A DNA stretch of 64,000 nucleotides from Patescibacteria group bacterium. Its GTDB lineage: Bacteria; Patescibacteriota; WWE3; UBA101185; UBA10185. Each line of letters opens with the position of its first letter. Within the stretch, counting starts at the first letter, position 1. This document shows positions 11,422-36,286 of the stretch, piece by piece. Below the pieces are notes generated by a model, which was not told where the DNA came from, searched no databases, and saw only the letters and a list, made by a program, of their open reading frames with translations. The stretch lies in NCBI GenBank assembly GCA_049322215.1, contig JBMORU010000001.1, forward strand, positions 969,759 through 1,033,758, given 5' to 3'. The position numbers were made by a program, and so were the translations under genes.

Positions 11422-11442
11422 GTAGGTTTGCTTTATACCAAG

Positions 11443-12522: not shown

Positions 12523-12528
12523 TATACA

Positions 12529-12574
12529 GGTTCAACTTTTAGGAAAAATCCCTACAAGTTGAACCTTTTTTTTA
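12529..12574 (+). terminator. rho-independent terminator
   Basis: GGTTCAACTT (12529-12538) pairs with AAGTTGAACC (12556-12565), followed by a T-run of 9. Confidence 0.8.
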
Positions 12575-12605
12575 CTTAAAAGAAAAACCTTTTCACGTGC
12601 AAGAG

Positions 12606-12618
12606 CCTATAGTATAAT
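12606..12618 (+). promoter_or_regulatory. CCTATAGTATAAT promoter element
   Basis: Exact 13-mer, 45 nt upstream of the ATG at 12663. Confidence 0.6.
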
Positions 12619-12662
12619 ATGGAAATTGCTTACCCAATAAACTAACTAGAAGGAGATTTAAA

Positions 12663-21384: not shown

Positions 21385-21965
21385 TTCTTTAGTAAAGATT
21401 CATCAAAATCTATAATAATAAAATACTTGGCAGAGCTATTTTGGCTATCTAAGTTTACTGTTGTTAAAGTAACATTTGTAAATAGTGCCGCTAAACCATC
21501 GCCTGCAGAAGGAAAGTTTTGGTCTGATAAAGTTTTTATAAACTGTGCTATAGAAATATAATCTGAACCTGTACCTGATATATTTATAATTGGGTCACCG
21601 CTGTCTAAACTTAGGTTTGCAATAACTACATTTGCAGGAACTCTTTTGGATAATTCCGAAAGCAAAATAGAAAAGTAATTGCGATCGGCATAAATACTTT
21701 GAACCGCAGAAAATTTAGCATCCAAATTTCGTGCAGAAATTTCTATTTGAGCTAAGTTCGTGATTTCCTTACGTAATTCCTGAATACGGGCTTCTGCACC
21801 ATCAGACTCTTGTTGAAGACTTCGAATTTGCCAGTAATAGTAGCCACTGATACCCAAAACCAGTAACAAAATAAGCAAAGAAACCACAGTACCTGCCTTC
21901 ACCGCTTTTTCTCTTACTTGTTCCTGTTTTTCTTCCTGAGGAATCAGGTTAATACTTTGAGCCAT
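21381..21965 (-). CDS. pilN: PilN-like type IV pilus assembly protein
   Basis: The INLIPQEE N-terminus is typical of PilN (INLLP). TM helix and coiled-coil. Overlaps pilM by 1 nt. Confidence 0.65.
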   Translation of the reverse strand: MAQSINLIPQEEKQEQVREKAVKAGTVVSLLILLLVLGISGYYYWQIRSLQQESDGAEARIQELRKEITNLAQIEISARNLDAKFSAVQSIYADRNYFSILLSELSKRVPANVVIANLSLDSGDPIINISGTGSDYISIAQFIKTLSDQNFPSAGDGLAALFTNVTLTTVNLDSQNSSAKYFIIIDFDESLLKK

Positions 21966-23002
21966 TAACTCGCAAGTCCTTTCATTGCTAGACCAACTGC
22001 AGTTACAAACATAGGCCCAGAATCGGTTAAGTATTCTTTTTTAGAAAGTATTTTTTCGGAAATCCTAATGTTTCTCCAAGGGTTAGCTAGCTCTACTTCT
22101 AAATCTAAATTATTTGCCATGTAAAAGAGTAATCCAGGCATCAGGGCAGCACCTCCGGAAAGTATTACTCTATTAATGATAACATTGGGATTATGCGTTG
22201 TATAGAAAATTTTAGAGCGTTTTATTTCGGCAGTAATATTATCAAATAATGGTTTAAGTACCTCATAAACCTTACCATCTGCCTGAGTGCTATCTAAACC
22301 ATAAGTTTTTTTATATTCTTCTGCCTGATTAAAATCAAAATTTAATGCTTGCGCCAAAGAACGCGATAAAGTATCACCACCCATTGAAATACTTCTAGTG
22401 AAGCGTACGTATCCTTTATATGTAACAATAATTTCTGTACTCAACTCTCCCATATTTAAAATAATGCTAGCGCTTGGCCTACTTGGGTTATCTCCTAAAA
22501 CACGTCCTATAGCAAGTGTTTCGGGCTCAAGTCCTTTGGGAACAAGCTTTGCATCTTTTAAAATGGCCACATATTTACTTAAAACTGCTTGTTTTGCAGC
22601 CACTAACAAAACATCCATTTTATTTTTATCAATAGAATCAGTATCTATTATTTGGAAATCATAATTTACTTCTTTAAGAGGTAAGGGTATGTATTGTTCT
22701 GCCTCAAAGGCTATCGAGCTTTTTAAATCTTTTTCACCCATTTGTGGAACTTTAATAACCCTTGTAAATACGTCGGATTCAGGCAAAGAAACAATTACTT
22801 GATTCGAGGTAAACCCATTTTCCGAAAATATTTCTTTTAGTTTTTCTGAGTAATAGTCTAAGTCTTCTTTTGTATTGGATTCCAAGTTTAACTTGGCGTC
22901 ATTGAAAACGGTAAAGTTTTTAAGAACTTTGTTTCCCTTTATTTCATCTATTTCTAAGGCTTTTATGCTATAAGTACCTAAATCTAAACCTACTATGGAC
23001 AT
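21965..23002 (-). CDS. pilM: type IV pilus assembly protein PilM (actin-like ATPase fold)
   Basis: MSIVGLDLGTYSIKALEI, ILSGGAALMPGL. 345 aa. Confidence 0.85.
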   Translation of the reverse strand: MSIVGLDLGTYSIKALEIDEIKGNKVLKNFTVFNDAKLNLESNTKEDLDYYSEKLKEIFSENGFTSNQVIVSLPESDVFTRVIKVPQMGEKDLKSSIAFEAEQYIPLPLKEVNYDFQIIDTDSIDKNKMDVLLVAAKQAVLSKYVAILKDAKLVPKGLEPETLAIGRVLGDNPSRPSASIILNMGELSTEIIVTYKGYVRFTRSISMGGDTLSRSLAQALNFDFNQAEEYKKTYGLDSTQADGKVYEVLKPLFDNITAEIKRSKIFYTTHNPNVIINRVILSGGAALMPGLLFYMANNLDLEVELANPWRNIRISEKILSKKEYLTDSGPMFVTAVGLAMKGLAS

Positions 23003-23044
23003 GGTTAAATTCTAAAGTCTCTACTGTTTAATAGCAAGTTGCTA

Positions 23045-23857
23045 CTAATTAGAAAGTGGTTCTGTTGTATGTGTTTGAAATAAAGCAAAATCATATTGAA
23101 AGGGAACATAAGATTCGGTTTTTACTACCACAACTCGCTTTACGGCATCGCCAACTTGTCCAACTGATTCAATACGAATGCCTTGCGAAGGTAGAGAAGC
23201 ACCAGAATCAGATAAAACATTCACTTCCACATCGTTATAAAAAGACCGCAACCTAACCAACTTAGAATCGGGTCTGCCATTTATAGTAAAACAATGGGCA
23301 TATCCAAAAGCAGATGTAGCATCATCAAAACCGTTGCTAGTGTATGGAGATCCTAACGAATTTATGGCATAACTATCCATAGCTACAGAACCTGCGTTTC
23401 CATAAACATGGTAGGCCATTACTGAAGGTAAAAATCCGCTACTTGGGCTATTCCAACAAACAAATAAGTCAGTATTATCAGCATACCCATCTGTAATTAC
23501 TTGAGATACGTTTTCCTGTGTAACTCCAATTCCTAATGAGTCTGAAGAACCCTCAGTGCTTAATGTAATGCTTGCAGTAGCTACTACACCATCACTCCCT
23601 GTGATTTCCAAATAACAATCGGAAGTGCAGTTGCTGTTTTGAATATAATCTAATAATGTTTGATTTGGTAACGTTAAAATTCGTTCAACGGCAGCTTCAG
23701 CAACAGCTAAAGCTCTTTCTGAGTTATCGCTTTCACTTATAGTGCTTAAGTTTTTAATAAAGCGGGTGGAAACTGTAAGACCAATAGACAAAGCAATTAG
23801 CATCACCAAAACAATTAAGAGTATCGTTTGCCCTTGTTGATTTTTACCAAAACACAT
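23045..23857 (-). CDS. PilX-like protein (N-terminal hydrophobic helix without classical prepilin cleavage motif), paralog of 28669..29526
   Basis: N-terminus KNQQGQTILLIVLVMLIALSIGLTVS...AVAEAAVERIL. Alignable to 28669..29526 at both termini. Last gene of the minor-pilin block. Confidence 0.5.
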   Translation of the reverse strand: MCFGKNQQGQTILLIVLVMLIALSIGLTVSTRFIKNLSTISESDNSERALAVAEAAVERILTLPNQTLLDYIQNSNCTSDCYLEITGSDGVVATASITLSTEGSSDSLGIGVTQENVSQVITDGYADNTDLFVCWNSPSSGFLPSVMAYHVYGNAGSVAMDSYAINSLGSPYTSNGFDDATSAFGYAHCFTINGRPDSKLVRLRSFYNDVEVNVLSDSGASLPSQGIRIESVGQVGDAVKRVVVVKTESYVPFQYDFALFQTHTTEPLSN

Positions 23858-24390
23858 TAATATGCACCTCTAACAACAACGGTGTTGTCTAGGGAAACAG
23901 CTCCAGTGAAAACAGCCGCTGCTGCAGAACCTCTTTGAATGAAAACTAAGTGAATTTTTACTATAGAACCATCGCTAAGTTCAGAAATATCAGCAAAGTT
24001 AGGTTGACCGTCGCTGCGATCAACTCTTATTCCCGAAACTGAATCGTCGTTTATAATAGTTACTTGACTACCACCATTCACTGCTCTAAATAAGTTACCG
24101 TTTCCATCTACTGTATAAGATATTGTTACTGGGGTATCGTTAAGTTCGCGAGAAATAGTTACTTGTGTAGCACTATTTACTACAACAGAATCCGCATCTC
24201 GCAGCTCTTTTTCCAATTTTAAAAGCACATAATTTGTGTTTTGCTCAATTTCGTTCGCTACACGAGTTTTGTTATAACTTCTTACTAAAGATACAATTAT
24301 GTCACTTGAAACACCTACAGTTATAACAATTAAACTTACAACAATTAACAATTCTATTAAAGTGAATCCTTTAGAATTTTTATTGTGCAT
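23857..24390 (-). CDS. prepilin-type minor pilin
   Basis: Class III signal KG|FTLIELLIVVSLIV with Glu at +5. Confidence 0.75.
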   Translation of the reverse strand: MHNKNSKGFTLIELLIVVSLIVITVGVSSDIIVSLVRSYNKTRVANEIEQNTNYVLLKLEKELRDADSVVVNSATQVTISRELNDTPVTISYTVDGNGNLFRAVNGGSQVTIINDDSVSGIRVDRSDGQPNFADISELSDGSIVKIHLVFIQRGSAAAAVFTGAVSLDNTVVVRGAY

Positions 24391-24872
24391 TACTCTGGCC
24401 TCCAGTTAGAAAGTTCTGTATATGAATGCGCATATTTAACATCAGTACCTACTCGCCAAGAAACAGTAACTGCTATACGAACTAAGTTGTCAGAAGCATC
24501 AACACCATCTCCATTTATAGGGTCACTTGTTGTAAAAAATCGTGTTATTTGGTCGGCACCACTTCCTATTGTTTCGGTACCTGAAGATACGCCTATACCT
24601 GAAGATGTAGTTATATAACAGTTGCTCGAATCGCAGTTTCCCATTGTTGCAGTAAAAGTAGCCCAGTCAGTACTATCTCTAAAGGCGCGGGCTAACTCAA
24701 TTTCTTCATTCACTAATTTAGAACTTTGTAATAAAAGCTTGCTTTGAGTAGACGTTCTTAAAGTAAAAACAGATAAAGAAACCAAAGAGGTTATAACAAT
24801 AAGAGAAATTCCTAGAGCTACAAGTGTTTCTATTAACCCTATTCCGTTTTCGTTTTTAAATAGTTTAATCAT
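24390..24872 (-). CDS. pilin-like protein (degenerate prepilin signal)
   Basis: NG|IGLIETLVALGISLIV with Glu at +5. Start set at the TAATG junction with the upstream gene. Confidence 0.55.
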   Translation of the reverse strand: MIKLFKNENGIGLIETLVALGISLIVITSLVSLSVFTLRTSTQSKLLLQSSKLVNEEIELARAFRDSTDWATFTATMGNCDSSNCYITTSSGIGVSSGTETIGSGADQITRFFTTSDPINGDGVDASDNLVRIAVTVSWRVGTDVKYAHSYTELSNWRPE

Positions 24873-25462
24873 TAGTATTCGCAACTTACTTCAGCAGACC
24901 TTGCGCGAATTAGCCCCGCTGTATTTAATTCTATAGCCTCACAAGATGTATTATCAGAAAATCCCACAGTTATTACACAATTGGTGGGATTTGCATTGTT
25001 ACATTGAAAACCATCAGCAGCTCCAGAACCATCATTAAATGTAACATCACCGTTTTCATAGCTAAAAAACACACAAATTGGTCCGTTTCTAATTAATATG
25101 TTTCTGGGTAAATTTGACCCATTAGTGACCGGTTCGGTAGTGTTGAGACAATTTGCACTATAGTTAGTACCTGTAGCCTTAAAATAAGAATAATTTTTAG
25201 CATTATCGTAAAAACGAATACCCCAGTGAGTATACGTTCCATCTGAACCAACTCCTGACAAAGCATTGTTTTGAACGCTGCGCAAATCGCTTTTTACTTG
25301 TTCCTGCGCTTGAGTACGGCTTTGATTTTCGGAATAGGTGTTAAACCCTGGAACCAAAAAGCCGGTTAAAATAGCAATAAGTGAAACCACCACCAATAGT
25401 TCAATAAGCGTAAAACCTTGCATATTAGGGGTTTTTAGTTTTGTAATGACAAATAAGTACAT
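24872..25462 (-). CDS. prepilin-type minor pilin
   Basis: QG|FTLIELLVVVSLIAIL. Cys-containing C-terminal domain. Confidence 0.75.
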   Translation of the reverse strand: MYLFVITKLKTPNMQGFTLIELLVVVSLIAILTGFLVPGFNTYSENQSRTQAQEQVKSDLRSVQNNALSGVGSDGTYTHWGIRFYDNAKNYSYFKATGTNYSANCLNTTEPVTNGSNLPRNILIRNGPICVFFSYENGDVTFNDGSGAADGFQCNNANPTNCVITVGFSDNTSCEAIELNTAGLIRARSAEVSCEY

Positions 25463-25468
25463 ACTAAA

Positions 25469-26032
25469 TTAACTTTCAGGCTGCTTAACTCCTACACAGT
25501 AGTTTTTTGTAGGGAAATTATTACCACATCCACTTAGATTCCAATTGCTTAGTTGTTCGCAGCGCATCTCCAAATCTGATGCAGCTTTGGGATTTTCTAA
25601 AATAGCAGTGAGTATATAATATCTACCTTGAGCCGAAGCCGGAGAATAATAAGCATATCGGTTAAAATTTGCATTATTGCACGGACTATTTGTTCCGCCG
25701 GTTTCACCACTTGGATCTTCAGGAATATGCGACAAGTAAGCAGGAGATAGAGCAGTCTTCATAAAATTGCTGTTGTTATCGTTAACTTGCCGCCAGGCAC
25801 TTCCAGTGGTAGGATACCTTAGATTTTCTGCAAAATATATTTCTAATGCTGTTTGAATTTTTTGTAAATCGGAAATGCGTTGAGTATCGCGACCTTTCGA
25901 ACGAATACCCGAAGAGTTTAAAACTGCCAAAATAAGTCCACTTAGCACAGATATTATAACTATAACTAATAAAAGCTCTATTAAGGTAAAACCCTTCGTC
26001 TTAAGTAATTTGTTTTGGGCAGCCTTATACAT
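25469..26032 (-). CDS. prepilin-type pilin, paralog of 26538..27080
   Basis: KG|FTLIELLLVIVIISVLSG. Shares RDTQRISDLQKIQTALEIYFAEN with its paralog. Confidence 0.8.
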   Translation of the reverse strand: MYKAAQNKLLKTKGFTLIELLLVIVIISVLSGLILAVLNSSGIRSKGRDTQRISDLQKIQTALEIYFAENLRYPTTGSAWRQVNDNNSNFMKTALSPAYLSHIPEDPSGETGGTNSPCNNANFNRYAYYSPASAQGRYYILTAILENPKAASDLEMRCEQLSNWNLSGCGNNFPTKNYCVGVKQPES

Positions 26033-26044
26033 ACATAAATGTTA

Positions 26045-26557
26045 TCACAATATTGTTAAGTCGTTACCTAGTTCGTAGTATAAATCGTCATCGCCACCAT
26101 CATTTGAATTTAGAGAATATTCTGTGAGTACTTCTAAACTAGCTTGCAACTCATAACCAAAATCAGTATGTGCATAAGAGTAATGGTGGGTACTATCGTT
26201 TAATGGATCAGTAGGAAGTTTTGTAATATAGTCACTTAGGTCGGCTGCAATCCACCCGTTTCCCAAACTATTAACTAAAGGCCCCGAACTTCCTACAGGA
26301 AGTGAAGTACTAACTCTTACAATGTCAGAAAAATCAGGATACACTCCGTTATCTATACGATATTCATTTATAGCTCTGTCTATAAGTTGTAAATCACTAA
26401 CTCGTTTTTCATCTCTAGCTTTACCTCTTAATTCAGATGGATTTACAGATAGTAAAGCATATGCAGAAATAATAGCTATTATCGCTATGACCACAGTTAT
26501 TTCAACATAAGTTAAACCTTTTTCAGAAACTTTTTTATTATGGATTTTCAACACCAT
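26045..26557 (-). CDS. pilin-like protein of the LTIL-tail family
   Basis: KG|LTYVEITVVIAIIAIISAY with Glu at +5. C-terminus GGDDDLYYELGNDLTIL resembles those of 36868..37383 and 44853..45371. Start uncertain (ATG 26557, GTG 26554 or TTG 26551). Confidence 0.6.
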   Translation of the reverse strand: MVLKIHNKKVSEKGLTYVEITVVIAIIAIISAYALLSVNPSELRGKARDEKRVSDLQLIDRAINEYRIDNGVYPDFSDIVRVSTSLPVGSSGPLVNSLGNGWIAADLSDYITKLPTDPLNDSTHHYSYAHTDFGYELQASLEVLTEYSLNSNDGGDDDLYYELGNDLTIL

Positions 26558-27080
26558 AGCACACATCGCTTGTAGCAAAAGAAGAACAAGTAGACGATGG
26601 AATAGACCCGTACCCGTTTAAGCTACTACACTCATTATCATCGTTAGAGGTGGCAACCTCCATTATGGCAGCAAGCATGTATACTGATCCAGAAGCGTTA
26701 GTAATGTAGTGATATCTTTGAATATCTGGTGAGGAACATGGTTGATTAGCTGCAGATCCTTCTTCATCAGCAGGATCTAAAGGTAGGGGATCAATAAAGT
26801 CTGGTTCTAAATAAGAGGGTAGAAAGGAGCTGGCTTTTACCCAACCCTGGTTGCTACCCGAGGTGGGATACTGCCGGTTTTCCGCATAATACAGCTCTAA
26901 TGCCGTTTGGATTTTTTTTAAGTCTGAAGCACGTTGTGAATCACGAGCTTTCGACCTTATGCCTCCTGTATTTATAACAGAAAGCACTAAACCACTTAGT
27001 ACAGAAATTATAACCACTACTACTAACAATTCTATAAGTGTAAAACCATATTCCTTTGTTTTTAAATTTTGCGATTTCAT
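26538..27080 (-). CDS. prepilin-type pilin
   Basis: YG|FTLIELLVVVVIISVLSG. Start moved to MKSQNLKTKE (ATG at 27080), downstream of the hairpin. Confidence 0.8.
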   Translation of the reverse strand: MKSQNLKTKEYGFTLIELLVVVVIISVLSGLVLSVINTGGIRSKARDSQRASDLKKIQTALELYYAENRQYPTSGSNQGWVKASSFLPSYLEPDFIDPLPLDPADEEGSAANQPCSSPDIQRYHYITNASGSVYMLAAIMEVATSNDDNECSSLNGYGSIPSSTCSSFATSDVCYGVENP

Positions 27081-27091
27081 TTTAATAGCAT

Positions 27092-27117
27092 AATGAGGCC
27101 TCCGAGGAGGCCTCATT
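27092..27117 (-). terminator. GC-rich hairpin immediately 3' of the candidate major pilin gene (attenuator or mRNA-stabilising stem)
   Basis: AATGAGGCCTCC pairs with GGAGGCCTCATT (12-bp arms). No clear T-run follows on the minus strand. Confidence 0.45.
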
Positions 27118-27127
27118 GTATAAGCCG

Positions 27128-27649
27128 TTAACTACAGTTGGTGCCTGCGTTATCACAATCCTGGATTTCTCCAACGGTATTATCGTATCTAAATATTGTG
27201 TCTACGATACCATGGGATTTACCAAAGATTTGGAACTGTACAGATCCTGCGCCACTAGGTGCAAGATATCTGAAACTACATTGAACTGCACCTGAACCAC
27301 TCCAAGTAGGAGCTGTTCCTGAACAAAGTACCGGTAACGGATTACCTGTAATAGTAAACATACAGTCATAGGAATTTGCGGTAGAACAGCTTGTACCAGA
27401 TTCGGTAACGTTAGATAAAGCAGCGATAAACTGAACCTCATCTGGAACCTCTCCATAGGCGGAGATGAAACCTTCGGTTGCCAATGCTACCTTGTTTATA
27501 CCAGCTTTAACTCCTGCATCTCTAGCTCTGTTTTGTTGAGTTGCTGGATTAATAACAGCAATCAACACACCGGCCAAAATACCTATAATAACGATAACGA
27601 TTAATAATTCAATAAGGGTGAAACCTTTAGAAGACCTTAGCGTTCTCAT
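27128..27649 (-). CDS. pilA: candidate major type IV pilin
   Basis: KG|FTLIELLIVIVIIGILAGVLIAVINP. Strong RBS GGGGGTGGAG. The only pilin gene with a long (~140 nt) upstream noncoding region and a 3' hairpin. Start set at MRTLRSSKG (ATG at 27649). Confidence 0.7.
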   Translation of the reverse strand: MRTLRSSKGFTLIELLIVIVIIGILAGVLIAVINPATQQNRARDAGVKAGINKVALATEGFISAYGEVPDEVQFIAALSNVTESGTSCSTANSYDCMFTITGNPLPVLCSGTAPTWSGSGAVQCSFRYLAPSGAGSVQFQIFGKSHGIVDTIFRYDNTVGEIQDCDNAGTNCS

Positions 27650-27791
27650 GTCTCCACCCCCTTTCTGATAGTATATAGTTGTATTCAAAACCTCTATTTA
27701 ACATGATACTGGGCAGATGACTACAGCAAATAAAATGTACCATGTTCAATGTAATCATCTATATCAAGTATGGCTGTCGACATATTTAATG

Positions 27792-28667
27792 TCAAGAATT
27801 AAACAAGCCGAAATACCAGTATATAAGGTAATTACCAAAAAAATTACCAAGTAAACTACCAAGTATTAAAAAGGGGCCAAAGGGTATAGTGTCTTTTATG
27901 GTTTTAACCCTAACTAAAATTAAAAACACGCTAAAAACGGCCCCAGTTAAGAAACCCAAAAATATTGAAAGAATGTTTATTGGAAATACGTTAAACAAAC
28001 CAATTAGTAGGCTGAGTTTTAAATCACCGCCACCCATACCACGGCCTTTTGTAAGCACAATTAATAACCAAAAAAAAGCAAATATACCTAAAGCGCTCAA
28101 AAACTGAAAGCCAAGCTGCTGCAAAGTAAGATAAAGCCGATCGTTCCATAAACCAACGTCTAGCAAGTATTTTCCAAACTCATCATTTTTCAGATAAATA
28201 TAAGAAGTAGCTAAGTCATAAGTTTTTATTCCAATGGTATATAACAAAACAATTGCAATGGTGGGAAAAATAACTTTATTCGGTAGCAGTCTAAACTTAA
28301 TGTCAGTAAGAAATAATATTACGTAAGCTGAAAAAACAAATAAAAAGTAAAAAAACACTAGTAGCGAACTATCTGTAAAGATATTTGCAGAGTAAGCTGC
28401 TAAAACAAACATAGCACCTGTAAGAAGTTCAGATAGGGGATAGAGCTTTGATAAAGTTTTTTTGCAATTTAAACATTTACCACGCTGATACAAAAAAGAA
28501 AAGACAGGAACAAGTTCTTTTGGTGTAAGGTTTTTACCACAAAACGAGCACTTGGATCTTCCTATAAAAATGGATTCTTCCGTATCTAGTCTGTCAGAAA
28601 TTAGATTTAAAAAAGAACCAACAAATAAACCTGAAAAAAATATTACTAAATAACCCAATAAGTACAT
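27792..28667 (-). CDS. pilD: prepilin peptidase (A24 family) PilD
   Basis: N-terminal CxxC...CxxC, GMGGGDLKL and IPFGPFLILG aspartyl-protease blocks. Polytopic membrane protein. Confidence 0.85.
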   Translation of the reverse strand: MYLLGYLVIFFSGLFVGSFLNLISDRLDTEESIFIGRSKCSFCGKNLTPKELVPVFSFLYQRGKCLNCKKTLSKLYPLSELLTGAMFVLAAYSANIFTDSSLLVFFYFLFVFSAYVILFLTDIKFRLLPNKVIFPTIAIVLLYTIGIKTYDLATSYIYLKNDEFGKYLLDVGLWNDRLYLTLQQLGFQFLSALGIFAFFWLLIVLTKGRGMGGGDLKLSLLIGLFNVFPINILSIFLGFLTGAVFSVFLILVRVKTIKDTIPFGPFLILGSLLGNFFGNYLIYWYFGLFNS

Positions 28668-28668
28668 G

Positions 28669-29526
28669 TTAATTGCTTGTTAATGAACCCTCATCACTGT
28701 ACAAACTGTGATCAAACATGCTTGGTAAATGAGGTAAAAACTTAAATACTGTTGCTTCCTTAACGGCTTCGTTTTCAATAGTTGCACCTTGCAAACTAGC
28801 ACGTGCACGAATTCGATGCCCTTGATAAGGTAGCCCTGAGGAACCTCTTAAGCCAACATGCGAATCACCTGCAATAGATCTTATACGAATGCCAACAGGG
28901 TTACTTGGCAAACTAACATTTGCACAGTGATCATAGTTACTATTTGACGATGGGGAAGCGTTTATAAAGCCACTTTTATCTGATCCAAAACCCGTATCAC
29001 AAGAACCACTACAAGAAATTCCTGTTTTTGTTATTTCACCAGAATTATTGTATGCGATTACATACAGGTCTGTATCCGTACCAGAGGGTTCTCCTGCCCA
29101 GCATACCTCTACAGAAGATGAACTATATGTTGTTAAAGAAACTTCAAAAGTTTGATTTTCTTCTAGGGGAATCGGTATATCAAAAAAGTTTCCGGCAGTT
29201 GTATTACCAAATCTTTCTACCACTATGGCAGCGACGGCAGTAACTGTTTCGGTAGCTTCAGGATTAAAGGTAACAACACACGCCGTGGTATCAAAATTAG
29301 AACATGTACCTGTTAAATTATCCAATTCCACACTTGATAAACGTAAATAACGCTCTAGACCACCTTCTGCAGCAGCAATTAAGCGTGAGTAAGTATCTGT
29401 GGATGTTATTCGAGAAACTGAGGATAAAGTTCGAAGGGATACAGCAGTACCTACAGCTAAAGCTATAGCCATAGTAGCTACTACAAATAACAAAACTTGA
29501 CCTTGTTGATTAAAATGGTTCTTCAT
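28669..29526 (-). CDS. PilX-like protein, paralog of 23045..23857
   Basis: NQQGQVLLFVVATMAIALAVGTAVS...AAAEGGLERYL. Start set at the TAATG junction with the giant gene. Confidence 0.5.
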   Translation of the reverse strand: MKNHFNQQGQVLLFVVATMAIALAVGTAVSLRTLSSVSRITSTDTYSRLIAAAEGGLERYLRLSSVELDNLTGTCSNFDTTACVVTFNPEATETVTAVAAIVVERFGNTTAGNFFDIPIPLEENQTFEVSLTTYSSSSVEVCWAGEPSGTDTDLYVIAYNNSGEITKTGISCSGSCDTGFGSDKSGFINASPSSNSNYDHCANVSLPSNPVGIRIRSIAGDSHVGLRGSSGLPYQGHRIRARASLQGATIENEAVKEATVFKFLPHLPSMFDHSLYSDEGSLTSN

Positions 29527-32500
29527 TATTTTTCCCAATAAACCTCACTAACAAACAAGCCTGAATAATTGGCTATGCTGCTGTTTAACTCCTGCGAGGT
29601 TAGTTTAGTTAAATACAATGGGTTGTAAACTATATACTCTGCAGGATAACTGTTCTTTAAACCTCTATCTCTTTCAAATAATACAGTACTTGCTGCATCT
29701 CCACCAACAATTAGTGGACCTTCTACAATTATAGTGCTTTCGGTTTCTATATCGCCTGTACTTTCGAATATTATACTACCATGTGTTAAAAAGGCAGCTT
29801 CAACAAAAGGACGCGTGCTTATGCTAGGCTCACCTGCAAAGCTAGCCCCTAGATCAGCACTAAAGCGAATGGGAACCTGGCTAACAAAAAATATACGATC
29901 ATTATTTATTTCGCTCGACCTAAAATATCTGGGGGTACCTATAGAATCACCATCACCAAAAACTACTTCAGTAACGCCAGTAACGTAAATTACTACTACA
30001 CCATTTTCACCGTTAGCTATGCGATAATCAGCAGCATTTAAACTATTCAAACCATTTTGCAAACAGCTTGAAGTAATTTCATACACATTTGCAGGGTCTA
30101 GTGATCTGTTAGTTAAAAACCCAGTACAATCAGTTATTTGTATAGCGTTTTCGGGTGGAATAAAAGAATATGCTGATAACCAGGTACTAGCCAATGTATT
30201 AATATTTTTAAGATATACATTTGACTGTGCATATTGGGAACTATCTTGATTAGTTGCAATGTTTTTATTAGAAAACGTAGTTGCATTACCGCTTACTAGG
30301 TGCGGGGCAAAGCCTCCCTGCACTACCGAAGCATCTGGTATAGATTCAGTAATTCCTTCTGCACAAGTTAAACACCCCGCATATATATCACCATTTAATG
30401 AGCTGAACCAACCTTTAGAATCTAAATCAAATCCCAAATGAACATCAACAGGATTTCCAGAGGCATCTAAAGGAACATCAATAAGAGCGCAAGTGGAACT
30501 TAAAGGGCCACTATTACCCGGACCATCTACACATCTCAAGGAATACGTAGCATTAGCTTGTTGAGCGTACTCAGACAAATCGGCACATAAACTTAAACCA
30601 TTTTGCTGAGGGGTATCTTGTACTACATAGCTAGGGTAATTTGAGGCACCGTCAAGTGATACACTTGAAGAGCCTGTAGGTACGGTTGTAATGTTTATGG
30701 CATCTACGGCTATGGGATCAAGTTCTTCCACACCTTTAGCGGGATATTCACAAACAAACTCTGTAGAATCCCAAAGCCAACCTTGCACATCAGACACAGG
30801 ATTAACGGTAACGCGCATAAAGTCTTCATCTCCACAATTAGACCAACCCGGCACAACATTTGTAGGATAAAGCGGAGAATTTAACGGGCCATAAAATGGA
30901 GAGTTTTCCGGGTAAGCACCAGGATTACCTGAACAACGACCGTTTTCTCCTGCACCGTCCCCAAATTCATCCCAAACATTAACAGAAACCACCCAATCTC
31001 CCACATCAGAAATTACAGGAGTCCAACTTCTCGTCATATAACAAGGTTCTACCGACGTACCACAACTATGCGTACCCGAAAACTGTGTCCAACAGTTTGG
31101 TGAACAAACACTAGTAGGAACTGACCATTGTCCTGTGCTTGCATTATATTTTCTTCTAAACAGCTTTAAGGTTTCACCAGTATTAGGATTTAAATCTTCT
31201 CCTTTTCCCTGAAAAGTTTGAGCTACACCCACACTCAAAGTTGTACTGCCACCTGAAGGATAATAGCCCTCACTGAAAAAACTTCCGTTTAGGCGTACAG
31301 CACCTGTAGGAGGATCATTGACAATTACACGAACTCTGCTTGTATCGCCACAGTTAGACCAAGCTGAGTAAGGAGACGAAGGATAAACAGGAGGGAATAG
31401 AGGATTATCTCCAGGATTACCAGTGCAAATTGAATAGGGACGCCCGGCGAATCCTTCTGTATCTTGCGCATTTACTGCAACCCACCAGTACCCAACATCA
31501 GAACTATTTATATCCCAAGAGCGGGTGATTGTACAATCCCCACCGCTACAACTTTGTGTGGAACCTATTTGAACCCAGTTTCCAATCCAGGTACCAGAAT
31601 TTGGATCATATTTACGACGCCACATTGTTGCTTCATCCAAATTATCATTTTGATCACTTACAGTGGCACTAACATTTAAAAGCCTACTTGGATAGTAAAT
31701 TGGGTCTGTTAAGTTTGTTATTTGAGCAGTAGGTGGGTCGTTTTCAGGTTTGAGTTTAAACCACAAATGATTATCCCAATCATCACCACCTAAAGGAACC
31801 GTAGCCACACATCCGTAACCAGAAGCATTTGTATAACTCCCAAATGGATAAGTAACAGACCAAGTATCACACTCCCAACCGCTAGGAGGGAATAGAGTAA
31901 AGGAGTGCGGTCCAGCACCGTCAGCTGCAGCTTCTCTTATGTAGTGAGGACCAGGATTACATGCCCAATCGGAAGCAGCCCCGTTAGAATTGGAAATTAT
32001 TAAAGTGCCATTGTGTTCACCATTAGGATCTGTTTGGTAACTACCCCCACAAGAGAAACCCGCACCATTATCGGTAGCAGGTTGCCATAAAATATTATTA
32101 CCAGAGGAATCTGTATGATATACACGACCAATTACGCGGCGTTTGTCTTCGCCACCACCTCCACCACCACCGCAAACACTTCCCCAGCAAACTTTTTTAC
32201 AGTTGCCATCGCCCCAGTCAGACCAACTAGCGCAGGATAATCCTGCGTTATCGCAAATACTGTGATCCTCCCAGGAAACATTAACATTAGAACAACCATC
32301 AGACGCACTTCCTTCACCACAAATATCGCCACAAACAGCGGGTTCTGGTGGGGGATCATCTGGGTCACCAGGATCTCCATCATCTGAAACATTTACACAA
32401 CATGTCCCAGTATAATGCCAGGAACCAGCACCTTCACTGCAGGTGTTAGGGTCACAACCTTCTGCAGGGTAATACACATCATAACCACAATCGGCTTCAC

Positions 32501-32702
32501 AGGTAAAAGTAACTCGCTGCCAACGTTGATAACATGGTGGACTACTGCCAGGGGGGTTAAAGCCACAACCACCCGGTACATCCTGAACTTTTGTACCAAT
32601 GCAATAGTCTTGCGGATTACATATGGTTTGAGCATTAGCTTGAAATGTGAAAAACAAGCCACCAATAAAAACTAAACTAACTATAAATATTCTTTTCTTC
32701 AT
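29526..32702 (-). CDS. giant exported cysteine-rich protein A (1058 aa), unknown family, type IV pilus-operon embedded
   Basis: Sec signal MKKRIFIVSLVFIGGLFFTFQANA. About 18 Cys in residues 25-177, then GGGGGGG. Shared core, two internal repeats and a 423-aa C-terminal module, all alignable to 33419..36286. ATGA overlap with the upstream gene. Confidence 0.85.
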   Translation of the reverse strand: MKKRIFIVSLVFIGGLFFTFQANAQTICNPQDYCIGTKVQDVPGGCGFNPPGSSPPCYQRWQRVTFTCEADCGYDVYYPAEGCDPNTCSEGAGSWHYTGTCCVNVSDDGDPGDPDDPPPEPAVCGDICGEGSASDGCSNVNVSWEDHSICDNAGLSCASWSDWGDGNCKKVCWGSVCGGGGGGGEDKRRVIGRVYHTDSSGNNILWQPATDNGAGFSCGGSYQTDPNGEHNGTLIISNSNGAASDWACNPGPHYIREAAADGAGPHSFTLFPPSGWECDTWSVTYPFGSYTNASGYGCVATVPLGGDDWDNHLWFKLKPENDPPTAQITNLTDPIYYPSRLLNVSATVSDQNDNLDEATMWRRKYDPNSGTWIGNWVQIGSTQSCSGGDCTITRSWDINSSDVGYWWVAVNAQDTEGFAGRPYSICTGNPGDNPLFPPVYPSSPYSAWSNCGDTSRVRVIVNDPPTGAVRLNGSFFSEGYYPSGGSTTLSVGVAQTFQGKGEDLNPNTGETLKLFRRKYNASTGQWSVPTSVCSPNCWTQFSGTHSCGTSVEPCYMTRSWTPVISDVGDWVVSVNVWDEFGDGAGENGRCSGNPGAYPENSPFYGPLNSPLYPTNVVPGWSNCGDEDFMRVTVNPVSDVQGWLWDSTEFVCEYPAKGVEELDPIAVDAINITTVPTGSSSVSLDGASNYPSYVVQDTPQQNGLSLCADLSEYAQQANATYSLRCVDGPGNSGPLSSTCALIDVPLDASGNPVDVHLGFDLDSKGWFSSLNGDIYAGCLTCAEGITESIPDASVVQGGFAPHLVSGNATTFSNKNIATNQDSSQYAQSNVYLKNINTLASTWLSAYSFIPPENAIQITDCTGFLTNRSLDPANVYEITSSCLQNGLNSLNAADYRIANGENGVVVIYVTGVTEVVFGDGDSIGTPRYFRSSEINNDRIFFVSQVPIRFSADLGASFAGEPSISTRPFVEAAFLTHGSIIFESTGDIETESTIIVEGPLIVGGDAASTVLFERDRGLKNSYPAEYIVYNPLYLTKLTSQELNSSIANYSGLFVSEVYWEK

Positions 32703-33415
32703 TTCTCCAATATATCTAAGTGAATTTGGTATGCTGGCATTACTGACACTTCTTTTAACGAAAAAGGAAGTTCTCTAACATAGGCTTTAATTTCAAGTAA
32801 GTCGGTAATTTGTGCAATATTACACATATAGGCACGTCCACTACAATACTCAGAATTACGAATATCTGCAGAGGGGTACTCAGAAATGTATTCAATATTA
32901 ATTGGAGAACCTATTTTCGCTACAGACTTGAAAAACTCAAAGTTTACAAATTCAGGAGGACTATCAGATGACTTAAAAAGGGATATGTTATCAACAGTTA
33001 CATTATGTAAAGTGCCCGTTAAAAAAACTTTAAATTTAGTATCTAGCGCTTGCACTATCATATAATTTGCAGCACCGTCACTTTCAAAACCTAGTAAAGT
33101 CGGTTGAAAGTAGCGAAATACCCAACCTTCAAAGCTACCATACTCTGTAGGATGTAACGGAACATCTGAAAACACCCCATTATTAAGCATATCTTTAGGG
33201 GGCAATAGTAATGTGGCATCAATATTTGATGAATCAGAAAAACTTTTTAGTGCAGTATCTTTATAGGAGGCAAAGAAAAACCCTAAATATCCAGCTGTAA
33301 ATAATACAAACACCACTAATGTTATAAACAACAAAGGTTTTAGACTAAACTTACTGGCTGGCTTATCAGCTAAAAGCTTAAGTGGCTCGTAATTTGCTTT
33401 AGCTTTTAATCCCAT
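32699..33415 (-). CDS. single-pass membrane protein (238 aa), partner of giant A
   Basis: TM helix LLFITLVVFVLFTAGYLGFFFA followed by a ~185-aa extracytoplasmic domain. Located 3 nt after giant B's stop, with an ATGA overlap onto giant A. Confidence 0.65.
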   Translation of the reverse strand: MGLKAKANYEPLKLLADKPASKFSLKPLLFITLVVFVLFTAGYLGFFFASYKDTALKSFSDSSNIDATLLLPPKDMLNNGVFSDVPLHPTEYGSFEGWVFRYFQPTLLGFESDGAANYMIVQALDTKFKVFLTGTLHNVTVDNISLFKSSDSPPEFVNFEFFKSVAKIGSPINIEYISEYPSADIRNSEYCSGRAYMCNIAQITDLLEIKAYVRELPFSLKEVSVMPAYQIHLDILEK

Positions 33416-33418
33416 AAA

Positions 33419-36286
33419 TTACTCCCAAAAAACCGGTGAAACAAACAAACCGCTGTAATTTGACACAGAATTATTACCAGAGCGTTCCTGGTTTGTTAAA
33501 TCAACAAGATATGCTGGATTATATTTAACAAGCACCGAAGGTTTATCATTGTTTAAACCCCGATCTTTTGCAAAAACTATAGTGTCTGTAGACCCGCCAA
33601 CTACAATTGGGCCTTCAAGAATAACGGTTTTTTCAGTTTCTACATCATTGGTAGATTCAAATGTAATAGGTGCCTGGCTTATAAAACCTGCTTCAATAAA
33701 CGGACGCGTAGTTTCTGTAGGTTCTGCAGTACCAAAGCTTTTACCCAAATCCTGACTTATAACTATTGGAACCTGACTTATAAACATTATTCTAGTTGAA
33801 TTTACTAAGGCAGATCTAAAAAATCTATTGTTTGCTGAACCGCTTGTTTCTCCGGCACCAAAAGTTACTGTAGAACTACCTGTAATGTATATGGTAGCAA
33901 CACCACTAGCTCCATTTGTTAATCTGTAAAAACGCTGACCTTGAGGCTGGGTTCCTAATGCATCTATACCGCTCTGAACACAGGAGGAGCTGGCATAATA
34001 AACCTCATCAGGGTCTAAAATTCTAGCGGTAAACATTCCAACGCAATCACCACCAGTTAACTCAATAGCGTTTTCAGGAGGTAGAAATGTATAAGATACA
34101 GGCCATGTAGGGGAAGATGTATTTAAATTGCGTATAAACATGTCACTTTCAGCAAAAAAACTTGTTCCTGAATTTACAGAAACATCGTCATTAGAAAATA
34201 AGTTACCTAAACCAGAAACTAAATAAGGTGAAAATCCTGCAGCAGTAACTAGTGCGGGGTCGGGAATAGCCTGACTAACACTTTCGGTACAGCTGGAACA
34301 ACCCACAAATATATCGCCATCTACAGCTGTAAACCAGCCACTTGAGGCTAAATCAAAACCTAAATGAATATCTACAGGAGAGGTAGAAGGATCCAAGTTT
34401 AATAAAGCACAGTTTCCACTTAAAGGACCGCTACCATTAGGACCTTCAACACAAGTTAATGAATATGTTGCATTTGCCTGTTGTGCGTACTCAGACAAGT
34501 CTACACATACGCTAAGCCCGTTTTCTACTGGAACAAGATTTATGTTGTAGCTTGGGTAATTGCTTGAGCCATCTAACGAAAGACTTCCATTTATTGGTGG
34601 GGAAGATACTGATATGCCGTCAACAGCTATGGAATTTAGTTCTAAAGTCCCTTTGTCTGAGGTGCTACATACTTGGTCTGTGGAATCCCATAACCAACCT
34701 CTAACATCAGTCACCCCAACTACTTCTACTGCTAAATGACTATTATTTCCACAATTCGACCACCCACTACTTGCCCAAGGAGATACTGGGTAGGCAGGAG
34801 GATTTAAAAAGCTCCCCGTAGGAATTAAATGGTTATAAGGATTTCCTGTACATCTCGTATTTACACAACTTGTTCCGCTACAGGTACCTGCGCCAGAACC
34901 GCCGGGGGCATAAATGTCACGGCTATCAACTTCTAGCATCCAAAATCCAGCATCACTACCACTTGCCGCAGGCGTCCATGTTCTGCCATAAGTACAGGAA
35001 GTACCTGAGCAAGATTGTGTAGCACCTACAGCAATAGGCGCAGCTAAACGCGTGTCATTTACTTCATCAAACAAAATCCTTTGCAAAGAACTGTACTCTA
35101 AGTTTCCGCCAGCATCGTTTGCTCGTAGAGTTAAATTTATAGTTTCCCCTGAACGTACAACTAAACGATTAGTAGGGCTATCAAACGTATCTTCCACGGG
35201 AGCTAAAATTTCACTTGTAGGAGGAGAATTAACAGTAATTAAAATGCGACTATTGTCACCACAGTTTGCAAAACCAGCAACGTTTTCTGTAGGGTATGGA
35301 GCAGGATTTAATGGGTCAGTTCCAGGATTACCCGTACACCATACACTAGAAGTATCTGAAGCATTTGTTGCAATAATCCAAGATCCTTGATCTGCTAGTG
35401 GAATACTATTCCAGGTGCGCGAAAAATTACAGGTACTTCCCGAACAACTCACATTTGATTGAATTTGAATCCAACTGCCTAACCAGGTACCACTAACTGG
35501 GTCTATCTCACGGCGCCATAGTTGCCCTAAAGATAAATTTCCATCTGTATCAGATGCAGTAACATTGAAAGTAACGCTTCCGCCAGAGTTAACAAAATAG
35601 GGTGTAGCTGGAGAAGTTATTGAAGCAGTTGGTGCAACATTGGCCGGCTGCACTTTAAACCATAAATGATTATCCCAGTCATCTGCACCTAAAGACACCG
35701 TAGCTGTACAACCAGTACCAGAAGTGTTTGTGTAAGCTCCAAGAGGATAGGATATAAACCATGACACGCACGTATATCCAGGAGGAGGAGTTAAGGTAAA
35801 GCTGTGTGGCCCCGCACCGTCACTAGCTGCTGCACGTATGTAGTAGGGCTCGGGGTTGCAAGCCCAACTGGCAGTACTTCCCCCAGAATTGGATACGGTT
35901 ACTGTATTGCTTGAATCTGTTTGATAGCTACCACCACACGAAGCGCTAGCACGCTGCCAAAGTCTTGTTGACCCTGTAAAGTCATCATAAATTCTACCAA
36001 TAACGCGACGGGTGTCACTAGGAGTACCCCCGCCACCACTACAACAACTGCAAGTACCTCCCTCACTAGTTGGAATACCATCCCCGTAGTCAGGAGCACC
36101 CGGCTGACAACAACAACCATTACTGCAACCTCCAGGTAAAGGATCACCACATAAGTGCCAACATGGGGCGGGATCACCGCAACCTGCAAATGTTGTATTA
36201 GGCGTTAATAACCCAATGGCTATAAAAGAAATAGCTGTAAAGACCGTAATTAAAAATACTTTTCTATAATGGCTTAGTTTGGGCAT
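33419..36286 (-). CDS. giant exported cysteine-rich protein B (955 aa), paralog of giant A
   Basis: Signal peptide ending TTFAGC (lipobox-like). Shares RRVIGRIY, CGGSYQTD, WACNPEPYYIRAAASDGAGPHSFTL and DDWDNHLWFK with giant A. The C-terminal 431 aa are alignable to A and end NYSGLFVSPVFWE. Confidence 0.85.
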   Translation of the reverse strand: MPKLSHYRKVFLITVFTAISFIAIGLLTPNTTFAGCGDPAPCWHLCGDPLPGGCSNGCCCQPGAPDYGDGIPTSEGGTCSCCSGGGGTPSDTRRVIGRIYDDFTGSTRLWQRASASCGGSYQTDSSNTVTVSNSGGSTASWACNPEPYYIRAAASDGAGPHSFTLTPPPGYTCVSWFISYPLGAYTNTSGTGCTATVSLGADDWDNHLWFKVQPANVAPTASITSPATPYFVNSGGSVTFNVTASDTDGNLSLGQLWRREIDPVSGTWLGSWIQIQSNVSCSGSTCNFSRTWNSIPLADQGSWIIATNASDTSSVWCTGNPGTDPLNPAPYPTENVAGFANCGDNSRILITVNSPPTSEILAPVEDTFDSPTNRLVVRSGETINLTLRANDAGGNLEYSSLQRILFDEVNDTRLAAPIAVGATQSCSGTSCTYGRTWTPAASGSDAGFWMLEVDSRDIYAPGGSGAGTCSGTSCVNTRCTGNPYNHLIPTGSFLNPPAYPVSPWASSGWSNCGNNSHLAVEVVGVTDVRGWLWDSTDQVCSTSDKGTLELNSIAVDGISVSSPPINGSLSLDGSSNYPSYNINLVPVENGLSVCVDLSEYAQQANATYSLTCVEGPNGSGPLSGNCALLNLDPSTSPVDIHLGFDLASSGWFTAVDGDIFVGCSSCTESVSQAIPDPALVTAAGFSPYLVSGLGNLFSNDDVSVNSGTSFFAESDMFIRNLNTSSPTWPVSYTFLPPENAIELTGGDCVGMFTARILDPDEVYYASSSCVQSGIDALGTQPQGQRFYRLTNGASGVATIYITGSSTVTFGAGETSGSANNRFFRSALVNSTRIMFISQVPIVISQDLGKSFGTAEPTETTRPFIEAGFISQAPITFESTNDVETEKTVILEGPIVVGGSTDTIVFAKDRGLNNDKPSVLVKYNPAYLVDLTNQERSGNNSVSNYSGLFVSPVFWE

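What the first reader, a model, noticed from the sequence alone, without database searches (positions are those of the whole stretch)
29529..30797. Conserved ~425-aa C-terminal module shared by both giants while N-termini diverge
Seen: the last 423 aa of giant A (29529-30797) and the last 431 aa of giant B (33422-34714) align end to end. Both begin V(S/T)DV(Q/R)GWLWDST. Shared blocks include NYPSY, LSEYAQQANATYSL, VD(V/I)HLGFDL, F(I/L)PPENAI, IY(V/I)TG, RI(F/M)F(V/I)SQVPI, TRPF(V/I)EA, FEST.D(I/V)ETE, EGP(L/I)(I/V)VGG, DRGL(K/N)N and YNP.YL. The N-terminal parts differ in length and sequence: ~160 aa of Cys-rich sequence in A versus ~50 aa in B. Inference: the conserved C-terminus is the docking or assembly part (as in PilY1, where the conserved C-terminal domain associates with the pilus). 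The variable N-terminus would be the ligand-binding part. The alternating hydrophobic pattern suggests a beta-rich, possibly beta-helical fold.
Basis: partly seen in the sequence, partly recalled or inferred. Interest (0 to 1): 0.7.

Follow-up and report, generated by a model that had tools for sequence, protein, structure and literature searches.

The report
Solenoid tail of pilus-tip giant proteins
Two giant secreted proteins in the type IV pilus operon of an ultra-small (Patescibacteria, WWE3-like) bacterium end in a beta-solenoid domain that defines an unannotated protein family; it is always encoded next to a PilX-like pilus-tip subunit, so it is probably the part that fastens variable adhesins to the pilus tip.

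Summary
The alignment is real. Both genes lie on the minus strand, and the C-terminal 423/431 aa are 54% identical. But A and B are homologous over almost their whole length (A120-1057 / B38-955, 46%). A186-325 is more conserved (64%) than the C-module, and only the Cys-rich leaders differ.

The modular idea holds at family level. A profile of the module finds 173 clusters among 1.84 billion proteins. The module always sits at the extreme C-terminus, behind N-terminal parts of 0 to about 1000 aa. Only the last ~300 aa (A761-1058) are shared family-wide (128 of 149 representatives).

In all 12 independent loci examined, a family member lies immediately upstream of a PilX-like minor pilin inside a type IV pilus operon.

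Best reading: a Sec-exported, non-pilin tip adhesin or plug whose solenoid pairs with PilX, that is, ComZ or cyanobacterial PilX split into two polypeptides. This is a new variant of a known kind. The docking step is inferred, not shown.

The parts
29526..32702 (-). Giant A, 1058 aa (NCBI MFZ5425219.1, 'hypothetical protein ACOZAO_05470', Patescibacteria group bacterium)
   Evidence: ORF; identity and source name. No Pfam or NCBIfam match.
32631..32702 (-). A1-24, Sec-type signal peptide (MKKRIFIVSLVFIGGLFFTFQANA|Q); there is no prepilin motif
   Evidence: Read from the sequence, so the cleavage site is an inference. None of 150 family representatives has a class III signal motif.
32148..32630 (-). 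A25-185, Cys-rich variable leader (18 Cys in A1-185) ending in a Gly run
   Evidence: It has only 1 phmmer hit among 149 family representatives.
31728..32147 (-). A186-325, the domain best conserved between A and B (63.8% identity)
   Evidence: It is found in only 3 of 149 representatives.
30798..31727 (-). A326-635, two tandem Cys-containing Ig-like repeats (42-45% identical to B)
   Evidence: There is a weak Big_7/Cadherin_4 match at the equivalent place in B. The two repeats cross-match.
30423..30797 (-).
29529..30422 (-). A761-1058, family-defining core: a triangular beta-solenoid with a flanking helix (starts at GWFxxxGDxY; ends EGP..RDRGxxNxYP..YNPxYL...W)
32699..33415 (-). 238-aa single-pass membrane protein; its stop overlaps the start of giant A by 4 nt
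   Evidence: A small TM protein sits at this position in the other loci, but without detectable sequence similarity.
33419..36286 (-). Giant B, 955 aa, tandem paralog of A
34346..34714 (-). B525-647, beta-sandwich half of the module
33422..34345 (-). B648-955, beta-solenoid core
36264..36845 (-). 193-aa single-pass membrane protein; overlaps the start of giant B by 23 nt
28669..29538 (-). PilX-like minor pilin ('x289'). It is 289 aa from the TTG start, or 285 aa from the ATG at 29526 as called in NCBI and Logan; that ATG overlaps the stop of giant A by 1 nt.
   Evidence: 76 homologs, all unnamed or named only 'hypothetical protein' apart from one JGI 'PulJ' label, the named ones from WWE3/Patescibacteria. 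PilX_N PF14341 matches 8 of 32 family members, best E 5e-5, though not this protein itself. A homolog lies immediately downstream of a solenoid protein in all 12 loci.
23045..23857 (-). Second PilX-like paralog ('x270'), after the pilin array and before pilM, with no solenoid partner
   Evidence: 28% identity to x289, E 6e-18. Orthologs sit at the same place in L088, L090, L091 and L092.
20533..41513 (-). The surrounding type IV pilus operon. Gene order: pilB, pilT, pilC, pilin, tm193, giant B, tm238, giant A, x289, pilD, 7 pilin genes, x270, pilM, pilN, pilO. No secretin gene is present.
   Evidence: The PilB/PilT/PilC/PilD labels rest on sequence reading and on precomputed Pfam hits on their orthologs in L091, L092 and L002. 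The same order next to gyrB/holB is seen in WWE3-clade MAGs.

Best explanation
The flagged stretch is the C-terminal two-domain unit of giant A: a transthyretin/CnaB-like beta-sandwich followed by a ~300-aa triangular beta-solenoid of the ice-binding-protein/ComZ type. The solenoid is the defining domain of an unannotated family of Sec-exported, non-pilin proteins. So far the family is seen only in Patescibacteria (mostly WWE3/Katanobacteria) type IV pilus operons.

Proposed mechanism:
1. The giant protein is exported by Sec.
2. Its solenoid end binds the PilX-like minor pilin encoded immediately downstream and translationally coupled to it.
3. The pair is incorporated into the minor-pilin priming complex and ends up at the pilus tip when the fibre polymerises.
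4. The variable N-terminal part (Cys-rich knots, Ig/FN3/PKD/TSP1 domains) points outward and binds the target, presumably a host-cell surface.

Functionally this is PilY1-like: a non-pilin tip adhesin or plug with a conserved C-terminus. Structurally it is ComZ / cyanobacterial PilX (PilX pilin fold plus ice-binding-like solenoid) divided between two polypeptides. Tandem paralogs such as A and B would give alternative tips.

Shown here: the homology, the family, the fold class, the absence of a prepilin signal, and the synteny. Inferred: Sec cleavage, the physical solenoid-PilX contact, tip location, and which end binds the ligand.
For: 1. Family. A profile of the module finds 173 clusters at E<=1e-3 and 140 at E<=1e-10 among 1.84e9 representatives. 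The module ends 9 aa or less from the C-terminus in 146 of 150.
2. N-terminal variation. The N-terminal extension runs from about 0 to about 1000 aa. 16 short forms are just a signal peptide plus the core. None of 150 has a prepilin motif. 57 of 87 have a Cys-rich start.
3. Core versus the rest. Only A761-1058 is shared family-wide: 128 of 149 representatives, against 1 to 12 for every other segment.
5. Precedents. ComZ is a GspK/PilX-like pilin with an inserted FfIBP-like triangular solenoid and is argued to sit at the pilus tip (PMC6561018). All cyanobacterial PilX homologs carry the same kind of solenoid, proposed to replace PilY1 as the tip plug (bioRxiv 10.64898/2026.02.12.705559).
6. Synteny. 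The order small TM protein, then solenoid protein, then x289-family gene occurs in the window, L003, L004/L005, L006/L007, L010, L013, L015, L088, L089, L090, L091 and L092. That is 12 of 12 loci with enough sequence, including 3 loci found by starting from the x289 side.
7. PilX-like partner. The x289 family matches Pfam PilX_N in 8 of 32 members.
8. Short forms. A short form, P0117, sits between pilD and an x289 homolog.
9. Paralogs. Tandem paralogs in L090 and L092 share the C-terminal 450-550 aa (40-48% identity) and differ at the N-terminus, as in the window.
10. N-terminal domains. Relatives carry TSP1, PKD, FN3 and Ig domains in their N-terminal parts.
Against: 1. There is no direct evidence of a solenoid-PilX contact; a complex prediction could not be run.
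2. The similarity to ComZ and ice-binding proteins is at fold level only. Foldseek found nothing significant in PDB (best E 0.1). Profile searches found nothing in PDB sequences or in Pfam, including DUF3494.
4. In ComZ the solenoid is the DNA-binding part, which argues that the conserved solenoid could be the effector rather than the anchor.
5. Between A and B, and between A and its ortholog, the C-module is not preferentially conserved.
6. x289 itself does not reach Pfam PilX_N significance, and its cleavage by PilD is unverified.
7. Taxonomic restriction rests on a few dozen labelled contigs, not on a census.
Confidence: 0.6

Rival explanations
1. The conserved solenoid is itself the effector: a receptor for DNA (as in ComZ) or for a polysaccharide or surface (as in tapirins and ice-binding-like adhesins). 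The variable N-terminal region would then be a stalk, or a decoy for antigenic variation. Attachment to the pilus or cell would use another part or another partner, for example the small membrane protein encoded upstream.
Against: There is no sequence similarity to ComZ, so its DNA-binding lysines cannot be mapped. The strict adjacency and overlap with the PilX-like gene in 12 of 12 loci points to a protein-protein partnership. The N-terminal parts of relatives carry classical adhesion modules (TSP1, PKD, FN3), which are not featureless spacers.
Confidence: 0.25
2. The giants are not carried by the pilus. They are secreted or cell-surface proteins (envelope or S-layer-associated adhesins, or beta-helix polysaccharide-degrading enzymes) that are merely co-transcribed with pilus genes.
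Against: No catalytic family was detected and there is no viral structural relative. The position inside the operon, between the major pilin or pilD and a PilX-like gene, is conserved across diverged genomes in which the N-terminal parts have been completely replaced. The best structural matches are non-enzymatic solenoids.
Confidence: 0.1
3. The similarity between the two C-termini reflects nothing more than a recent tandem gene duplication, with no modular meaning.
For: A and B are homologous over about 90% of their length at fairly even identity.
Against: The same core occurs behind unrelated N-terminal parts in more than 100 clusters, and alone in short forms.
Confidence: 0.05

Closest known systems
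ComZ of Thermus thermophilus (PDB 6qvi), a competence-pilus tip pilin
   Different: ComZ is one polypeptide, with the solenoid inserted between the last two strands of its own pilin domain, and it has an N-terminal hydrophobic pilin helix. Here the solenoid is the C-terminal end of a Sec-signal, non-pilin giant, and the PilX-like pilin is a separate, adjacent gene. There is no detectable sequence similarity. DNA binding is untested.
Cyanobacterial PilX family (PilX with an inserted ice-binding-like beta-solenoid; bioRxiv 10.64898/2026.02.12.705559)
   Same: The combination of PilX plus a triangular solenoid at the tip of a type IV pilus in organisms that lack PilY1, where it is proposed to act as the tip plug or adhesin.
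   Different: It is a fused architecture there and a two-gene architecture here. The giants add up to about 750 aa of extra N-terminal domains.
PilY1 / PilC tip adhesins of Proteobacteria
   Same: A Sec-exported non-pilin protein encoded beside minor pilins including PilX. It has a conserved C-terminal domain and a variable N-terminal adhesive part (background knowledge; PilY1 is discussed).
   Different: The PilY1 C-terminus is a seven-bladed beta-propeller and the N-terminus often holds a vWA domain. Neither is present: there is no Pfam hit and the fold is a solenoid.
DUF3494 / IBP-1-fold ice-binding proteins (e.g. 3wp9, 6bg8, FfIBP)
   Different: No sequence-level membership: none of 69 members hits the Pfam family, and Foldseek E is 0.1 or worse. 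The context is a pilus operon, not cold adaptation.
PilX1/PilX2 of Nanosynbacter lyticus TM7x (Saccharibacteria)
   Same: Large proteins encoded in a Patescibacteria pilus locus, without a canonical PilD signal, proposed as tip adhesins for binding the host bacterium (PMC11623550).
   Different: Their accessory domains are lectin-like and a beta-propeller, not a solenoid, and they are described as pilins with accessory domains rather than a separate protein plus a PilX-like pilin.
Tapirins of Caldicellulosiruptor (4wa0, 6n2b)
   Different: The structural similarity is much weaker than to ComZ or the ice-binding proteins, and no sequence relationship was found.

Membership tests
PilY1 / PilC (Pfam Neisseria_PilC, PF05567) | C-terminal seven-bladed beta-propeller domain | tested here: not met
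PilY1 / PilC | Non-pilin, Sec-exported protein encoded beside minor pilins including PilX | tested here: met
   Signal-peptide-like N-terminus and no prepilin motif in any of 150 members. A PilX-like gene lies immediately downstream in 12 of 12 loci.
ComZ / solenoid-bearing PilX pilins | Triangular ice-binding-like beta-solenoid | tested here: met
ComZ / solenoid-bearing PilX pilins | The solenoid is inserted in a pilin fold of the same polypeptide, which has an N-terminal hydrophobic pilin helix | tested here: not met
   The giants start with a Sec-type signal and the solenoid is C-terminal. The PilX-like helix is on the separate protein x289.
ComZ / solenoid-bearing PilX pilins | Detectable sequence homology to ComZ | tested here: not met
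   The family profile found 0 hits at E<=10 against all PDB sequences, which include 6qvi.
ComZ | DNA binding and binding to a neighbouring minor pilin (PilA2) | not testable with these tools
DUF3494 ice-binding-like (Pfam PF11999) | Match to the family HMM | tested here: not met
   The family is not among the Pfam families matched by the 69 members at E<=0.01 or by A or B at E<=1.
DUF3494 ice-binding-like | IBP-1 fold: a triangular right-handed solenoid with a flanking alpha-helix | tested here: met
Type IV pilins / pseudopilins (N_methyl, PF07963) | Class III signal peptide G|(F/M)xxxE and a hydrophobic alpha-1 helix | tested here: not met
   No N_methyl hit in A or B, and no such motif in any of 150 members. 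The neighbouring pilin genes do hit N_methyl.
PilX-like minor pilin (Pfam PilX_N, PF14341), applied to the partner protein x289 | PilX-type N-terminal segment (..QxGxxLLxVxxxxxxxxxxG.. ..AEGG..), lacking Glu5 | tested here: inconclusive
   8 of 32 family members hit PilX_N (best E 5.2e-5), but x289 itself does not. The motif is visible by eye in x289 and x270. PilD cleavage was not tested.

The most novel reading that the evidence does not exclude
WWE3-type Patescibacteria build their pilus tip from a split ComZ/PilX. The ice-binding-type solenoid, which in Thermus and cyanobacteria is inserted into the PilX pilin, is here supplied in trans. It forms the invariant C-terminal end of giant Sec-secreted proteins and locks onto a dedicated PilX paralog, possibly by donating its conserved, always-terminal ...GL..V.W tail. 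Tandem paralogs with swapped N-terminal heads (A/B here, and pairs in L090 and L092) would act as interchangeable tips that set host range. This would be an evolutionary bridge between PilY1-type tips (separate adhesin) and ComZ-type tips (fused solenoid). It would also be a handle on how uncultured episymbionts recognise their hosts.
Probability: 0.3. Interest if true: 0.75.

Novelty: new variant of a known kind. Interest (0 to 1): 0.6.

Why it matters
How ultra-small Patescibacteria find and hold on to their host cells is largely unknown. Type IV pili are the main candidates, and so far only the Saccharibacteria system has been dissected. This locus defines a compact search handle: a ~300-aa C-terminal solenoid together with the adjacent PilX-like gene. 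That handle picks out the probable tip proteins of WWE3-clade pili and separates their constant part from the exchangeable heads (Cys-rich, Ig, FN3, PKD, TSP1), which are the obvious candidates for host-specificity determinants. It also adds a third, two-polypeptide arrangement to the recurring pairing of PilX with an ice-binding-like solenoid seen in Thermus ComZ and cyanobacterial PilX. That makes testable the idea that this solenoid is a general PilY1-independent tip plug in monoderm-like and Terrabacteria lineages. Every source name seen for a family member is 'hypothetical', 'uncharacterized' or a label for an N-terminal domain, and no Pfam or NCBIfam model covers the core.

Tried and rejected
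1. The word-indexed homolog search with the module gave only one hit, P0001. The exhaustive profile search was needed to see the family.
2. AF2 with a 3-sequence alignment was unusable (pLDDT 43). It was redone with 69 sequences.
3. The search for related loci on genome contigs failed with A2 and A3, which had no conserved 7-10-column stretch. With A1 it gave 46 pattern matches, none confirmed. The second scan was therefore used with GyrB for taxonomy, and this also returned syntenic pilus operons.
4. The afdb50 fold library was unavailable.
5. Foldseek against PDB and against BFVD gave nothing significant.
6. The family profile against PDB sequences gave 0 hits. The x289 profile against PDB gave only chance antibody matches.
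7. Pfam and NCBIfam on the giants gave nothing beyond a sub-threshold Big_7 match.
8. The small membrane proteins upstream of each giant were tested as a family. Only one pair among 13 is similar by phmmer and the window's two are not similar, so only position and architecture are conserved.
9. The closest available pairs are 46-59% identical in protein, so synonymous sites are saturated.
10. A literature search for DUF3494 together with type IV pili found nothing.
11. Rejected ideas: a PilY1 homolog (wrong fold), a pilin (no class III signal), and a phage tail or depolymerase protein (no viral or enzymatic match).
Full report
**What is at the coordinates.**
The two giants are minus-strand genes. 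Giant A is 29526..32702 (1058 aa) and giant B is 33419..36286 (955 aa). The flagged stretch 29529-30797 encodes A636-1058, and its counterpart 33422-34714 encodes B525-955. The whole-protein BLASTP score is 763 bits (E = 0), so chance is excluded.

- A single alignment covers A120-1057 / B38-955 at 46% identity.
- Per-region identity is 63.8% for A186-325, 45.1% for A326-464, 42.3% for A465-634 and 54.4% for A635-1058.
- Only the Cys-rich leaders fail to align (about A25-185 with 18 Cys, against about B35-90 with 10 Cys).
- A partial ortholog of A on a related contig (L088) shows the same evenness: 57% in the Ig region, 65% in the first half of the module and 57% in the second half.
- Taken alone, the A/B pair looks like a tandem duplication with a replaced N-terminal head. 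It does not look like a conserved module attached to divergent bodies.

**The modular idea holds at family level.**
- The word-indexed search found one relative, P0001 (32% identity, 99% coverage), with an unrelated N-terminal part.
- An exhaustive profile search of 1.84 billion cluster representatives found 173 proteins at E<=1e-3 and 140 at E<=1e-10.
- In 146 of the 150 best, the module ends within 9 residues of the C-terminus.
- The sequence before the core ranges from about 0 to about 1000 aa, with a median of 413.
- Sixteen short forms (~320 aa) are just a signal peptide followed directly by the motif WF...GD.
- Segment-wise phmmer of giant A against the other 149 representatives gives these hit counts: A1-185, 1; A186-325, 3; A326-464, 11; A465-634, 4; A635-760, 12; A761-1058, 128.
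One is an optional ~125-aa domain. The other is a ~300-aa core (window 29529-30422 in A, 33422-34345 in B), and this core is the true family signature.
- None of the 150 members has a prepilin (class III) signal, and 57 of 87 complete members start with a Cys-rich stretch.
- N-terminal parts of relatives carry TSP1, PKD, FN3 and Ig domains. No Pfam model covers the core, and NCBIfam has none for A or B.
- The source names seen are 'hypothetical protein' or 'Uncharacterized protein', with one 'thrombospondin type-1 domain-containing protein'. They come from 'Patescibacteria group bacterium', WWE3/Katanobacteria, and one MAG labelled Saccharimonadales.

**Fold.**
- With three sequences AF2 failed (pLDDT 43). 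With a 69-sequence alignment it gave pLDDT 90.5 and pTM 0.88.
- The resemblance is at fold level only. Foldseek finds nothing significant in PDB or in viral models, and profile searches find no PDB sequence.
The PilY1 comparison is wrong as to fold, because PilY1 has a propeller.

**Genomic context.**
- The genes sit in a complete type IV pilus operon on the minus strand (41513 down to 20533).
- The gene order is pilB, pilT, pilC, pilin, a 193-aa membrane protein, giant B, a 238-aa membrane protein, giant A, a 289-aa protein (x289), pilD, seven pilin genes, a 270-aa paralog of x289 (x270), pilM, pilN, pilO. No secretin gene is present.
- Each giant overlaps the small membrane-protein gene upstream of it. 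In the NCBI and Logan gene calls, the start of x289 overlaps the stop of giant A by one base.
- x289 has 76 homologs. None carries an informative name, and the named ones come from WWE3/Patescibacteria. Eight of 32 aligned members hit Pfam PilX_N (best E 5e-5).
- The N-terminus (NQQGQVLLFVVATMAIALAVG...AAEGG) looks like a PilX/GspK-type minor-pilin helix without Glu5. That reading comes from the sequence and from background knowledge.
- GyrB places the genome among WWE3-clade Patescibacteria (70-76% identity to WWE3 and generically labelled MAGs).

**Synteny across genomes.**
- The arrangement small membrane protein, then solenoid protein, then x289 homolog is seen in 12 loci: the window, L003, L004/L005 (a short form, directly after pilD), L006/L007, L010, L013, L015, L088, L089, L090, L091 and L092.
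- These are all the loci with enough flanking sequence. Three of them were reached from the x289 side, so the link holds in both directions.
- L090 and L092 also carry two solenoid genes before the single x289 homolog. Those pairs share the C-terminal 450-550 aa (40-48% identity) and differ at the N-terminus, as A and B do.
- The small membrane proteins keep their position and architecture but not their sequence.

**Interpretation.**
- ComZ is a GspK/PilX-like pilin with an FfIBP-like triangular solenoid inserted in its fold. It binds the neighbouring pilin PilA2 and DNA, and is argued to cap the pilus (PMC6561018).
- A 2026 preprint reports that all cyanobacterial PilX homologs carry the same kind of solenoid and proposes that it replaces PilY1 as the tip plug (10.64898/2026.02.12.705559).
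- In Saccharibacteria, large locus-encoded PilX1 and PilX2 proteins without PilD signals are the candidate tip adhesins (PMC11623550).
- Against this background, the most economical reading is that the WWE3-type system pairs a PilX-like pilin with an ice-binding-type solenoid supplied by a separate, Sec-exported protein. The solenoid end would be the constant, pilus-proximal part, and the exchangeable N-terminal head the distal, target-binding part.
- The lack of a secretin gene in the operon fits a tip that can be very bulky. This is an inference.
- I put about 0.75 on 'pilus accessory protein functionally coupled to the PilX-like pilin', about 0.5 on the specific polarity (C-terminus docks, N-terminus binds), and 0.6 overall.
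- The main rival (0.25) is that the solenoid is itself the receptor, as in ComZ.
- Non-pilus surface or enzymatic roles (0.1) fit the synteny poorly, and no catalytic family was detected.

**Novelty.**
- The kind of thing is known: a type IV pilus tip adhesin or plug that combines PilX with an ice-binding-like solenoid.
- What appears undescribed is the two-polypeptide arrangement, the strictly C-terminal solenoid on giant non-pilin proteins, and the family itself.
- No model covers the core in Pfam or NCBIfam, the family profile matches no PDB sequence, and a full-text search for DUF3494 with type IV pili returned nothing.
- I rate it a new variant of a known kind, with interest 0.6.

Noticed in passing
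window 23857-27688 (minus strand) and 36868-37440: Seven consecutive pilin or pseudopilin genes (164-196 aa) lie between pilD and x270; most hit N_methyl and two hit T2SSG. A separate pilin gene follows pilC and is probably the major pilin. Related WWE3-clade loci have similar arrays of 6 to 9 genes.
   Followed up: partly
window 23045-23857 versus 28669-29538: There are two PilX-like paralogs in one operon (28% identical, E 6e-18). Only x289 is paired with solenoid proteins. x270 sits before pilM, and the same split is conserved in L088, L090, L091 and L092. This suggests one core priming PilX and one dedicated to the giants.
   Followed up: partly
window 32699-33415 and 36264-36845: A small single-pass membrane protein (193 or 238 aa) is translationally coupled upstream of each giant. 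The position is conserved in the other loci (148-216 aa), but the sequences are not recognisably related. It could be a fast-evolving chaperone or holding factor.
   Followed up: partly
window 30798-31727 (A326-635) and the equivalent part of B: An internal tandem repeat of a Cys-containing Ig-like domain (..WRR..DP.SGTW...CSG..C...R.W....G.W......D....C.GNPG..). The repeat units cross-match each other, and a subset of family members carries them too (11 and 4 of 149).
   Followed up: partly
window 55373-63344: A phage-integrase-family gene (55373-56359), several ORFs without Pfam hits, and an 857-aa HerA/TrwB-like ATPase (60771-63344) lie together. GC dips to 0.30 at 56-58 kb. This may be an integrated mobile element.
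   Followed up: no
window 41542-44275 and loci L009-L024, L092: The divergent arrangement gyrB-holB | pilB-pilT-pilC-pilin is conserved across many WWE3-clade MAGs. In most relatives pilD follows the pilin directly and the solenoid gene comes after pilD. In this window the two giants sit between the pilin and pilD.
   Followed up: partly
window 3149-6166: A class A penicillin-binding protein (transglycosylase plus transpeptidase) carries a C-terminal Big_7 Ig domain, which shows peptidoglycan synthesis in this small (~1.1 Mb contig) genome.
   Followed up: no
window 45427-46698, 46846-47970, 10434-13493: Several mid-sized ORFs (423, 374, 310, 336 and 276 aa) have no Pfam match at E<=1e-5.
   Followed up: no
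whole window: No tRNA gene and no Rfam family at gathering threshold in 64 kb.
   Followed up: yes
loci L017, L021, L023 (positions 1-2600): In these relatives the large gene after pilD and the small membrane protein is cut by the end of the fetched locus. It shows a signal peptide plus a Cys-rich start but no module hit, most likely only because its C-terminus lies outside the locus.
   Followed up: no
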